A program made the position numbers. From Escherichia coli (GTDB lineage: Bacteria; Pseudomonadota; Gammaproteobacteria; Enterobacterales; Enterobacteriaceae), in the NCBI RefSeq assembly GCF_003991155.1, contig NZ_CP031293.1: 64,000 nt of DNA; one strand, written 5' to 3'. Shown here piece by piece: positions 13,801 to 16,800 of this stretch. Each line of letters opens with the position of its first letter. Position 1 is the stretch's first letter.

Positions 13801-16800
13801 GTATATGGCTGAAGTGGAGTCCGGCGTTTACCCGGGCGAAGAACACAGTTTCCATTAAGGAGTGACGTTGTGTTAATTATCGAAACCCTGCCGCTGCTGC
13901 GTCAGCAAATCCGCCGCCTGCGTATGGAAGGTAAGCGCGTGGCGCTGGTGCCAACCATGGGTAACCTGCACGATGGCCATATGAAGCTGGTCGACGAAGC
14001 CAAAGCCCGCGCCGATGTGGTCGTCGTCAGTATTTTCGTTAACCCAATGCAGTTTGACCGCCCGGAAGATCTGGCACGTTATCCACGGACCTTGCAAGAG
14101 GACTGCGAAAAGCTGAACAAACGTAAAGTGGATTTAGTTTTTGCGCCTTCGGTAAAAGAGATCTACCCGAACGGTACAGAAACCCACACCTATGTTGATG
14201 TTCCCGGTCTTTCCACCATGCTGGAAGGTGCCAGCCGTCCGGGACATTTTCGCGGCGTTTCGACTATTGTCAGCAAACTGTTCAACCTGGTCCAGCCGGA
14301 CATCGCCTGCTTCGGTGAAAAGGATTTTCAGCAACTGGCGCTGATCCGCAAAATGGTTGCCGACATGGGCTTTGATATTGAGATTGTCGGAGTGCCGATT
14401 ATGCGCGCGAAAGACGGTCTGGCGCTCAGTTCCCGTAACGGCTATCTGACGGCGGAACAACGTAAAATTGCGCCGGGTCTGTACAAGGTCTTAAGTTCAA
14501 TTGCCGACAAATTGCAGGCTGGCGAACGGGATCTCGATGAAATTATTGCTATTGCCGGGCAAGAACTGAATGAAAAAGGTTTCCGTTCCGATGATATTCA
14601 GATTCGCGATGCCGACACATTGCTGGAAGTCTCTGAAAACAGCAAACGTGCAGTGATTCTGGTAGCCGCCTGGCTTGGCGATGCCCGCCTGATCGACAAC
14701 AAAATGGTCGAACTGGCGTAATACTTAACTGGCGCTACGGCTGATGGCGCCAGTTATTCATTGCCACGTCATCTGTAAGCAATTATTCATATCGTAGACA
14801 ACTTAGTTAGAGTTAATTAGCTTATCAATCTCTGCAAGAGATAAAGCTGTCACCTCTGCAACGTCTTCCCGAGACATTCCTTTACTCAGAAGACGCTGGG
14901 CCAGTCTTACCTTCTGGAGTCCCTCTTTATATCCCTTCTGAAATCCCTTCTGAAATCCCTTCTGAAATCCCTTCTCTTCAAACCACTGCGCCAACGTCTG
15001 CCTGGTTTCTCTCCGTGTCTTTATTTCCATATGTTCCCTTAATTATCTGGTCAGTTAACAATAACAATTATCTGGCTATAACTGATAATGCAGATAACTT
15101 AGCTAATCAGCTTATCAACCTCAGCAAGAGGTAAATTTGCCATCTCTGCAACGTCTTCCCGAGACATCCCTTTACTCAGAAAACGCAGGGCGAATTCCTG
15201 TCTTACTTCCTGTCTAACCTCTTGTATTACCTCCTGTCTTACCTCCTGTCTTACCTCCTGCCTTTCCTCCTGTCTTCCCTTCTCTTCAAACCACTGCGCC
15301 AGCGTCATCATAGACTCCCCTCCCGTTTCCCTGTCTCTCAGCACACCATAAAACAAATCCGCTTGTTCAGTATGACCGCGTTGCAGCATATAGTTTTGCA
15401 TGGCAACTAACTGACTTCCGCTAGTGTACCCTTCGTCAATCAGCGTGACCAGTTGCTCCAGCAATAACATTAAGTCGCGTTGGCGAATATGTTTTTGCAG
15501 CAGTTCGAGAATCGCAATCCGCCGATGTTGCATGATTTCGTCATCCGGTGTGATAGTGATATCCACCAGCGGGAAAGGACTGTTATAGACGCGTCGCGCC
15601 AGCTCCGGCGAGTAAAACATATCAAACCAGCACATTGAGAGTGGATAAGGCGTGGCCTCGCCCTGATAAAACAAAATCGGCACCACCAGCGGCAGCTTAT
15701 CGTGATCCGCCTCCAGATGCCGGTGCATGGCGGCAATGGCATAGCGCATCATGCGAAAGGTCATTTTCTTATCCGGCTTGCTTTGATGTTCAATCACCAC
15801 ATGCAAATAACCGGGATTGCCCTGCATTTGTACGGAATAGAGTACGTCCGTGCTGTGTCCTTTCAGGCTTTCCTCAATAAAACTCCCCGACTCAAGATGC
15901 AGCGTGTCGAGGTCACACAGTTCGCGTAGCTCCGCTGGCAAATGAATATCCAGAAAGTCGCGAGCCGTTTCCGCATGCATTAAAAATTGTTTAAATACCG
16001 CATCATGCGGTGTGGTACTCGGTGCATCCATCTTCCCTGCCTTCCGTGCTGTCTTACGTGAAGGCAGTATCCAGTCAAGGCGCGCCGTCGTCAGCCGCCT
16101 CTTTTGTGTTTGCCGAGCAGCGTTCAGAGAAATTTCAATTGGTTACAGGTGTTACATGACTCGCTTCGGCACGGTACGCAAACTGCTGATGCAAATGCCG
16201 TCAGATGAGTAGACACTAAACAAAAATCGGGCAATACTGCGTGAGAATTTCCTCAAAGCAGGCATCGCCTGCTTCGTTAACGACAGGGTAGAAAGGTAGA
16301 AGTTATGATTCGCACGATGCTGCAGGGCAAACTCCACCGCGTGAAAGTGACTCATGCGGACCTGCACTATGAAGGTTCTTGCGCCATTGACCAGGATTTT
16401 CTTGACGCAGCTGGTATTCTCGAAAACGAAGCCATTGATATCTGGAATGTGACCAACGGCAAGCGTTTCTCCACCTATGCCATCGCGGCAGAACGCGGTT
16501 CGAGAATTATTTCTGTTAACGGTGCGGCGGCCCACTGCGCCAGCGTCGGCGATATTGTCATCATCGCCAGCTTCGTTACCATGCCAGATGAAAAAGCTCG
16601 CACCTGGCGACCCAACGTCGCCTATTTTGAAGGCGACAACGAAATGAAACGTACCGCGAAAGCGATTCCGGTACAGGTTGCCTGATTGTTATCCCTGCGG
16701 CTGGTTACTCACCAGCCGCGACATCGTCTCCAGCGAATCCGTTCTTAAGATATAAAGTCGTTTTAGTAACAACGGATTATCCCCCGGTTTTACTTTGCCT

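What the first reader, a model, noticed from the sequence alone, without database searches (positions are those of the whole stretch)
15306..15325. Strong internal ribosome-binding site and in-frame ATGATG inside rpnC
On the coding (minus) strand the sequence gggaggggagtctATGATG places a near-consensus Shine-Dalgarno 4 nt upstream of two in-frame methionine codons, 70 codons before the rpnC stop. Internal initiation here would yield a small protein identical to the RpnC tail. The downstream orphan tail lacks this MM (RQ at the equivalent position) but has gained its own upstream ATG.
Basis: seen in the sequence. Interest (0 to 1): 0.55.

Follow-up and report, generated by a model that had tools for sequence, protein, structure and literature searches.

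The report
Known internal start for RpnC antitoxin
The strong ribosome-binding site and double ATG inside rpnC are real.

Summary
The window is the E. coli panC–rpnC(yadD)–panD region. On the minus strand, GGGAGGGGAG-tct-ATGATG lies in frame at codons 241/242 of the 310-codon rpnC, 70 codons before the stop. It is the strongest Shine-Dalgarno match of any in-frame start codon in rpnC. It is also the only outlier among 402 internal in-frame ATGs in the window.

This is the internal translation initiation site of rpnC-S. Meydan 2019 reported retapamulin peaks and synonymous-site conservation at yadD. Zhong et al. 2023 (PNAS) reported Onc112/retapamulin peaks, detected tagged RpnC-S, and showed that RpnC-S blocks RpnC-L only when the number of four-residue repeats matches. 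K-12, where those experiments were done, has the identical 29-nt context. The "orphan tail" downstream is their rpnC-Ss, present in 1,555 of 5,426 complete genomes.

What I add:
- A published K-12 Cappable-seq start site (score 60 versus 1.8 for the only one upstream of the gene) maps to window 15416, 105 nt upstream of the ATG.
- An inferred promoter, TGGTCA-N17-TACACT, sits just upstream of it.
- The first 69 nt of that leader are identical in 99% of E. coli genomes, while control segments of the same gene are polymorphic.

Verdict: observation confirmed, interpretation supported, already known, low interest.

The parts
15099..16031 (-). rpnC-L: full-length RpnC (YadD), 310 aa, a PD-(D/E)XK nuclease toxin
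   Evidence: ORF found. Pfam PF04754 Transposase_31 covers residues 7-207, E=6e-87. NCBIfam TIGR01784 Rpn family scores 277 bits against a cut-off of 52. RefSeq annotates the same ORF as rpnC in the closest genomes. The signature residues D10, D62, E81, Q83, R93 and PDDE at 162 are present; they correspond to RpnA D11, D63, E82, Q84, R94 and D165.
15446..15451 (-). Inferred -35 hexamer (TGGTCA) of the internal promoter for the short rpnC-S transcript
   Evidence: It lies 17 nt upstream of the -10 hexamer and is invariant in 10 alleles. Inferred from the position of the K-12 Cappable-seq TSS. The promoter matches 8 of 12 consensus positions, below the threshold of the consensus scan.
15423..15428 (-). 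Inferred -10 hexamer (TACACT) of the internal promoter
   Evidence: It ends 7 nt upstream of the mapped TSS and is invariant in 10 alleles.
15416..15416 (-). Transcription start of the short transcript, mapped by homology to K-12
   Evidence: The Cappable-seq TSS at U00096.2 147583(+), score 60.2, is rpnC CDS nt 616 and corresponds to window 15416. The only TSS upstream of the gene, at 146793, scores 1.8. Zhong 2023 cite dRNA-seq for an internal TSS in all rpn genes.
15312..15416 (-). 105-nt leader of the rpnC-S mRNA, lying inside the rpnC-L coding sequence. The segment 15349..15417 is almost invariant across E. coli.
   Evidence: It is the longest invariant run among 10 alleles. The 69-mer is identical in 5,369 of 5,424 genomes. 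Control 69-mers from the same gene are identical in 2,189 of 5,378 genomes and 151 of 281 matched genomes. It shows no excess RNA structure, with z=+1.37 and -0.74, and no Rfam family matches.
15315..15324 (-). Shine-Dalgarno sequence GGGAGGGGAG for the internal start
   Evidence: It is conserved as GGGAGGGGAG or GGGAGGGAAG in all the alleles examined.
15306..15311 (-). Internal in-frame start ATG ATG (codons 241 and 242)
   Evidence: It is invariant in all the alleles examined. The 70-mer around it is found in 5,424 of 5,426 genomes.
15099..15311 (-). rpnC-S: 70-aa small protein, the intragenic antitoxin, identical to the RpnC-L tail
   Evidence: Translation. The AlphaFold2 model has a long helix at 4-46 and two short helices. 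The best PDB match is 7TH0, RpnA-S, but the match is weak. The function comes from Zhong 2023.
15196..15280 (-). Tandem array of 7.1 copies of a 12-nt unit, encoding the (R/I)QE(V/E/F) four-residue repeats in the first helix
   Evidence: TRF result. The number and type of repeats differ between alleles. The published specificity determinant is described.
14803..15030 (-). rpnC-Ss: free-standing second copy of the tail (75 aa) with its own ATG and no internal SD-ATGATG module
   Evidence: RefSeq annotates it as 'hypothetical protein' or 'RpnC/YadD family protein'. The junction is present in 1,555 of 5,426 genomes. Described by Zhong 2023.
14931..14975 (-). Array of 3.8 copies of a 12-nt unit, encoding the GFQK repeats of the orphan
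   Evidence: It has one more unit than the closest genome, L001.

Best explanation
The site is the internal translation initiation site of rpnC-S, the small antitoxin half of the RpnC 'gene-within-a-gene' toxin-antitoxin system. The full-length mRNA, made from a weak upstream promoter, gives RpnC-L. This is a PD-(D/E)XK DNA endonuclease that is toxic and induces the SOS response. A stronger promoter inside the gene (inferred as TGGTCA-N17-TACACT, with the start site at window 15416) makes a short transcript with a 105-nt leader. Ribosomes bind the exposed GGGAGGGGAG on that transcript and start at ATG 15311 or at the adjacent ATG 15308, producing a 70-aa (or 69-aa) protein identical to the RpnC-L tail. 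RpnC-S folds as a long helix followed by two short ones. It pairs, through the long helix that carries the four-residue repeats, with the same domain in RpnC-L and blocks the nuclease. Because the two proteins share the same DNA, the toxin and antitoxin always have the same repeat number. What is shown here: the sequence anatomy, its statistical exceptionality, its conservation and the mapping of the start site. What is shown in the literature for K-12: translation of RpnC-S and repeat-matched neutralisation. What is inferred: that the same holds in this strain, the choice of first versus second ATG, the promoter hexamers, and any role in phage defence, which has been demonstrated only for the plasmid paralogue RpnP2.
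For: - **Sequence and statistics:**
- **Identical context in K-12:** the 29 nt around the site are the same, and the SD-ATGATG is kept in all ten other alleles examined, including one frameshifted allele. The 70-mer around the site is in 5,424 of 5,426 genomes.
- **Published experiments:** Ribo-RET peaks in all rpn genes and synonymous-site conservation at yadD; Onc112 and retapamulin peaks, SPA-tagged RpnC-S, and an internal TSS with a more abundant short transcript; RpnC-S blocks RpnC-LS only with an equal repeat number; RpnA-S, RpnB-S and RpnP2-S act as antitoxins.
- **Start site:** the Cappable-seq TSS at 147583 scores 60.2 against 1.8 for the upstream TSS, and it maps to a region identical in the window.
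- **Accessibility:** the SD and AUG are unpaired in the centroid fold of the leader.
- **Long protein:** the nuclease domain and its signature residues are intact.
- **Small protein:** the repeats begin at residue 11-13 of RpnC-S, inside the published range of 8-20. The predicted three-helix architecture has 7TH0 (RpnA-S) as its top PDB match.
Against: - Nothing has been measured in this strain or for this allele, which has seven RQEV-type repeats where K-12 has a shorter KGIE/RQEV mix.
- The RBS and internal-start knockouts were published for rpnA, rpnB, rpnP2 and a C. difficile rpn, not for rpnC.
- The match to 7TH0 is not significant (E=2.7) and the model has only moderate confidence (pLDDT 69).
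- Pfam does not detect DUF4351 in this tail.
- A phmmer search of the PDB with RpnC-S does not retrieve RpnA-S.
- The promoter hexamers match only 8 of 12 consensus positions.
- An antiphage role for chromosomal RpnC is untested.
Confidence: 0.93

Rival explanations
1. The SD-like run and the ATGATG are a by-product of coding for Thr-Gly-Gly-Glu-Ser-Met-Met and have no function in initiation.
For: G-rich glycine and glutamate codons can create SD-like strings by themselves. The usage-weighted mean energy over synonymous encodings of this peptide is already -6.9 kcal/mol.
Against: The site is the only outlier among 402 internal in-frame ATGs. It uses two rare glycine codons, P=0.0035. It is invariant or near-invariant in divergent alleles whose other synonymous sites vary. 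Initiation-profiling peaks and the tagged small protein are published for the identical K-12 sequence.
Confidence: 0.02
2. The SD-like sequence acts mainly as an elongation pause or regulatory site for ribosomes translating full-length RpnC-L, for example to aid domain folding, and the small protein is an incidental product.
For: The site lies at the border between the PF04754 domain, which ends at residue 207, and the tail. The repeat array downstream carries four more AGGAGG strings that are not followed by start codons.
Against: A dedicated internal TSS about 33 times stronger than the upstream one feeds this site. RpnS proteins are more abundant than RpnL and have a demonstrated neutralising activity. 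Retapamulin and Onc112 trap initiating ribosomes, not elongating ones.
Confidence: 0.03
3. RpnC-S is made, but its main role is something other than neutralising RpnC-L. It could be a helix-turn-helix DNA-binding regulator of the locus, or a decoy or sensor for a phage factor.
For: Zhong 2023 note an HHpred relationship to HTH motifs. Weak sequence matches of the tail to the C-terminal region of sigma factors appear. How RpnL is released is unknown.
Against: Direct neutralisation is shown genetically for RpnC and biochemically for RpnA. This rival adds to the antitoxin role rather than excluding it.
Confidence: 0.1

Closest known systems
E. coli K-12 RpnC-L / RpnC-S (yadD, b0132), Zhong et al. 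2023 PNAS (PMC10400941)
   Same: It is the same gene at the same locus between panC and panD. The SD-ATGATG context, the leader and the promoter hexamers are identical, and so are the N-terminal residues MMTLAQWFEE and the C-terminal LSKGMSREDVAE core.
   Different: The window allele is about 92% identical in DNA. Its tail has 70 aa with seven RQEV-type repeats, against 60 aa with a KGIE/KGIQ/RQEV mix in K-12. The window has a downstream rpnC-Ss gene that K-12 lacks. The 3' end of K-12 rpnC, with TTGATA-N17-TAAGTT, resembles the 3' end of the window's orphan.
RpnA-L / RpnA-S (yhgA), crystal structure PDB 7TH0
   Same: It has the same architecture: a PF04754 nuclease, an in-frame internal start at the tail border (M244 of RpnA against M241 here), and a three-helix small protein with a long first helix.
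   Different: It is a paralogue. The tails are too divergent for phmmer to link them. RpnA-S does not block RpnB-L, so the antitoxins are paralogue-specific.
ypaA / RpnE-Ss, the free-standing tail gene downstream of rpnE
   Same: It is the counterpart of the window's orphan: a duplicated tail expressed as a separate small gene.
   Different: It arose independently from rpnE. The window's orphan derives from rpnC and has diverged in repeat type (GFQK against RQEV).
Other functional in-frame internal starts: Cas11d within cas10d, and ArcB-C within arcB
   Same: One gene gives two proteins through a 3'-proximal in-frame start site.
   Different: In those cases the products cooperate or act separately. 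Here the short product antagonises the long one.

Membership tests
RpnL/RpnS intragenic toxin-antitoxin (Rpn, YhgA-like) | An N-terminal PF04754 / PD-(D/E)XK nuclease domain with the signature residues (RpnA D11, D63, E82, Q84, R94) | tested here: met
   PF04754 covers residues 7-207, E=6e-87. TIGR01784 scores 277 bits. D10, D62, E81, Q83 and R93 are present, matching the residue list.
RpnL/RpnS intragenic toxin-antitoxin (Rpn, YhgA-like) | An in-frame internal start codon with its own ribosome-binding site at the border of the variable C-terminal tail | tested here: met
   GGGAGGGGAG-tct-ATGATG lies at codons 241/242 of 310, with a duplex energy of -10.8 kcal/mol, and is the unique outlier in the window.
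RpnL/RpnS intragenic toxin-antitoxin (Rpn, YhgA-like) | An internal transcription start giving a short, more abundant transcript | tested here: met
   The K-12 Cappable-seq TSS at 147583 (score 60.2, against 1.8 upstream) maps to window 15416, in sequence that differs from K-12 at only two positions from CDS nt 560 to the internal ATG, neither of them in the inferred hexamers. This rests on homology and was not measured in this strain.
RpnL/RpnS intragenic toxin-antitoxin (Rpn, YhgA-like) | Four-residue (12-nt) repeats that vary between strains and begin 8-20 residues after the initiating Met | tested here: met
   There are 7.1 copies of a 12-nt unit. The repeats begin at residue 11-13 of RpnC-S. 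The tails of the ten other alleles differ in repeat number and type, one (L001) being identical.
RpnL/RpnS intragenic toxin-antitoxin (Rpn, YhgA-like) | The small protein folds as a three-helix bundle like RpnA-S (7TH0) | tested here: inconclusive
   AlphaFold2 gives helices at 4-46, 51-58 and 62-69, but pLDDT is only 68.9. 7TH0 is the top Foldseek hit among 350,542 chains, but with E=2.7 and TM 0.46/0.69.
RpnL/RpnS intragenic toxin-antitoxin (Rpn, YhgA-like) | The small protein is translated in vivo and neutralises the long protein | not testable with these tools
   Published for the K-12 allele: SPA tag, ribosome profiling and the SOS reporter assay. Not known for this allele.
RpnL/RpnS intragenic toxin-antitoxin (Rpn, YhgA-like) | Protection against phage | not testable with these tools
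   Shown only for plasmid RpnP2-LS. PADLOC 2.0 has no model that matches RpnC.
Pfam DUF4351 (PF14261), the label given to free-standing RpnS genes in some species | A significant match of the tail to the PF14261 profile | tested here: not met
   A Pfam scan of the full 310-aa protein lists only PF04754 and a weak DUF2802 match (E=0.14) at E of 10 or below. The tail is recognised only by the C-terminal part of TIGR01784.

The most novel reading that the evidence does not exclude
The internal start itself is known. What the evidence leaves open is the 69-nt block that forms the first two-thirds of the rpnC-S leader (window 15349-15417). It is identical in 99% of E. coli genomes, although it lies in a gene whose other segments are polymorphic and next to a hypervariable tail. 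It could be a dedicated cis-regulatory element, such as a binding site for an sRNA or a protein, or a condition-responsive leader. Such an element would set the RpnS:RpnL ratio and so decide when the nuclease is unleashed. Zhong et al. list the control of that ratio and the release of the toxin as unexplained. A second open point is whether the diverged orphan tail, whose helix segment is 28 residues against 34, is a non-cognate spare cassette used to swap toxin-antitoxin specificity by recombination.
Probability: 0.2. Interest if true: 0.45.

Novelty: already known. Interest (0 to 1): 0.15.

Why it matters
The Rpn systems are the first well-documented case of an antitoxin encoded inside its own toxin gene, and they are a reminder that one annotated gene can hide a second protein with the opposite function. 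For this window, the practical point is about annotation. The locus holds three products (RpnC-L, RpnC-S and RpnC-Ss), but RefSeq lists two, one of them as 'hypothetical protein'. The finding opens no new question. The only unpublished leads are the start-site-anchored invariant leader and the diverged orphan tail.

Tried and rejected
- **Promoter scan:** the consensus sigma-70 scan found no promoter on the minus strand inside rpnC. The promoter inferred from the mapped start site matches only 8 of 12 positions, so the scan's threshold missed it.
- **Terminators:** no terminator-like site lies between rpnC and the orphan.
- **Sequence search of the PDB:** phmmer with RpnC-S gave only weak, unrelated helical hits and did not retrieve RpnA-S.
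- **PADLOC:** there is no Rpn model, only noise hits.
- **Pfam:** DUF4351 was not detected.
- **Rfam:** nothing at E of 1 or below in 14700-16300.
- **RNA structure in the leader:** rejected as the explanation for its invariance, with z-scores of +1.37 and -0.74. With no sequence variation, no covariation test is possible.
- **A K-12-type promoter for the orphan:** rejected. The TTGATA...TAAGTT pair at the rpnC 3' end has an 11-nt spacer. The functional 17-nt version sits at the orphan's own 3' end and points away from it.
- **Other rpn paralogues in the window:** none; tblastn finds only rpnC and the orphan.
- **Papers not held:** the PMC copies of Meydan 2019 and Weaver 2019, Thomason 2015 (dRNA-seq), and the SI of Zhong 2023. 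I therefore could not read which of the two ATGs the authors assign as the RpnC-S start, nor their dRNA-seq coordinate.
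Full report
**What is there.** The window covers the E. coli panB–panC–rpnC–panD region. rpnC (formerly yadD) lies on the minus strand at 16031..15099 and encodes 310 aa. At 15324..15306 the coding strand reads GGGAGGGGAG TCT ATG ATG. The two ATGs are codons 241 and 242, in frame, and the first is 70 codons before the stop. The only inaccuracy is the spacing: the G-run ends 3 nt before ATG1, and the GGAGG core ends 7 nt before it.

**Is it more than chance?** Yes.
- The predicted pairing with the 16S rRNA 3' end is -10.8 kcal/mol. That is stronger than at the annotated rpnC start (-8.4) and the best of all 28 in-frame ATG/GTG/TTG codons in the gene.
- Across 51 long ORFs of the window there are 402 internal in-frame ATGs. 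Only these two reach -8 or below, and the next best is -7.7.
- The motif is spelled with the two rare glycine codons, GGA GGG, plus GAG. From the window's codon usage, the probability of that spelling given Gly-Gly-Glu is 0.0035. The usage-weighted probability that any synonymous spelling of TGGES gives an SD this strong is 0.037.

**What it is.** It is the internal translation initiation site of rpnC-S, which is already published.
- Meydan et al. [quoted passage not shown] - Zhong et al. 2023 (PNAS, PMC10400941) show Onc112 and retapamulin profiles for rpnC and detect chromosomally SPA-tagged RpnC-S in MG1655. They note an internal transcription start in every rpn gene.
- They also demonstrate that RpnS proteins are antitoxins that block the toxic RpnL nucleases. 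For RpnC, RpnC-S counteracts RpnC-LS in an SOS reporter only when both carry the same number of four-residue repeats.
- The K-12 allele used in those experiments has exactly the same 29 nt around the site as the window.
- All ten other alleles I fetched keep the SD (GGGAGGGGAG or GGGAGGGAAG) and ATGATG. They range from 92% to 99% identity and include O157:H7 and one frameshifted allele.
- The 70-mer around the site is found in 5,424 of 5,426 complete E. coli genomes.

**The long protein.**
- RpnC-L has a PF04754 domain at residues 7-207 and matches the Rpn family model TIGR01784.
- It keeps D10, D62, E81, Q83, R93 and the PDDE motif. These are the residues whose RpnA counterparts were shown by Kingston et al. 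2017 to matter for activity.
- So the toxin half looks intact.

**The short protein.**
- RpnC-S would be MMTLAQWFEEKG-(RQEE RQEV RQEV RQEV IQEV RQEV RQEF)-ALRFLSKGMSREDVAEMANLPLAEVDKLIS.
- The repeats are a 7.1-copy array of a 12-nt unit at 15196..15280. They begin 11-13 residues after the Met, inside the 8-20 range given by Zhong et al..
- AlphaFold2, run on a 15-sequence alignment, predicts one long helix (4-46) and two short ones (51-58, 62-69), with moderate confidence (pLDDT 68.9).
- The top Foldseek hit among 350,542 PDB chains is 7TH0, the RpnA-S crystal structure, but the score is not significant (E=2.7).
- I treat the fold as consistent with the family, not as proof.

**Transcription, which adds to the finding.**
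- Supplementary Cappable-seq data for MG1655 (Ettwiller et al. 2016, PMC4782308) list a plus-strand TSS at 147583 with score 60.2. The only TSS upstream of the gene (146793) scores 1.8, and two other internal ones score 2.6 and 1.7.
- Position 147583 is rpnC CDS nt 616, which is window 15416.
- The sequence upstream reads TGGTCA-N17-TACACT-N6-A. Both hexamers are invariant in the alleles examined.
- This promoter matches 8 of 12 consensus positions, which explains why the consensus scan missed it.
- The short mRNA would therefore have a 105-nt leader lying wholly inside the RpnC-L coding sequence.
- Folding the leader with the start region shows no excess structure (z=+1.37), and the SD and AUG are unpaired in the centroid. 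That fits efficient initiation.

**An almost invariant leader.**
- Among 10 alleles, 74 of 252 codons vary, but codons 199-225 show no synonymous change. The longest invariant run is CDS nt 615-683 (window 15417..15349), which begins one base before the TSS.
- At population scale this 69-mer is identical in 5,369 of 5,424 genomes.
- An equal-length control from CDS nt 404-472 is identical in only 2,189 of 5,378 genomes.
- A second control, from CDS nt 164-232, is diverged enough that megablast matches it in only 281 genomes.
- This is very likely the 'enhanced synonymous-site conservation' that Meydan et al. saw and left unexplained.
- Tying it to the start of the short transcript is, as far as I could find, new. 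Its function is unknown. It has no known RNA family and no significant structure.

**The orphan.**
- The 75-aa ORF at 15030..14803 is the 'rpnC-Ss' of Zhong et al..
- DNA homology with the rpnC tail runs from about codon 232 to a few bases past the stop.
- The orphan lacks the four codons that carry the SD and has AGG CAG (R-Q) in place of ATG ATG. It starts at its own ATG behind a weaker AAGGGA (-5.3).
- The rpnC-orphan junction is present in 1,555 of 5,426 genomes, or 29%.
- Its repeats are of a different type (GFQK x3, then GYKE, GLQK). The segment between the invariant WFEE and LSKGMS motifs is 28 residues, against 34 in RpnC-S.
- Given that a one-repeat mismatch abolishes neutralisation, I infer that the orphan is probably not a cognate antitoxin for this RpnC-L. 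That is untested.
- Repeat types (RQEV, KGIE, GFQK, AYQE) are shuffled between the two positions in different strains. Alleles L009 and L010 are fusions of the rpnC body to an orphan-type tail ending in INSN. This fits the fusion and loss events mentioned by Zhong et al..

**Verdict.** The finding is already known, so I score interest low. The residual points of interest are the start-site-anchored invariant leader and the possibly non-cognate orphan tail.

Noticed in passing
window 15349-15417 (minus strand): A 69-nt block inside rpnC is identical in 5,369 of 5,424 complete E. coli genomes, while equal-length controls from the same gene are polymorphic. It begins one base before the mapped internal TSS, so it forms the first two-thirds of the rpnC-S leader. 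It has no excess RNA structure and no Rfam match, and the cause of the constraint is unknown.
   Followed up: partly
window 15416-15451 (minus strand): An internal promoter is inferred from the K-12 Cappable-seq TSS at 147583 (score 60.2, against 1.8 for the only TSS upstream of rpnC). It reads TGGTCA (15451..15446), 17 nt, TACACT (15428..15423), with the start at A 15416. It matches 8 of 12 consensus positions, so the consensus scan missed it.
   Followed up: yes
window 15196-15280 (minus strand): The 12-nt repeat unit CAGGAGGTAAGA puts four perfect AGGAGG Shine-Dalgarno strings inside the coding sequence, and no ATG, GTG or TTG follows them in any frame within the array. Whether this absence of start codons is selected, or whether the strings affect elongation, was not examined.
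   Followed up: partly
window 14931-14975; L001 1571-1786: The closest complete genome (strain 2016C-3878, 99.3% identity over 1.6 kb) has an rpnC tail identical to the window's, but its orphan has one GFQK repeat (12 nt) fewer. So repeat number changes even between very close relatives, and it changes in the orphan as well as in rpnC.
   Followed up: partly
L009 570-1460; L010 570-1497: Two strains without the orphan carry an rpnC whose tail ends in the orphan-type ...DKLINSN, which indicates fusion of the rpnC body to the orphan tail. The L010 allele is also frameshifted and is annotated as a pseudogene.
   Followed up: partly
window 14793-14828 (minus strand): K-12 has a second mapped TSS (147880, score 19.4) 10 nt past the rpnC stop, driven by TTGATA-N17-TAAGTT, and it runs antisense into panC. 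In the window the same 17-nt-spaced pair sits at the 3' end of the orphan (14828..14800, predicted start about 14793). The copy at the rpnC 3' end has an 11-nt spacer. This suggests that the 3' end of K-12 rpnC is orphan-like, and it predicts an antisense transcript into panC here too.
   Followed up: partly
window 14803-15030: RefSeq annotation of the orphan is inconsistent between genomes: 'hypothetical protein', 'RpnC/YadD family protein', 'transposase', or a partial pseudogene. None of the records examined annotates RpnC-S as a separate product.
   Followed up: no
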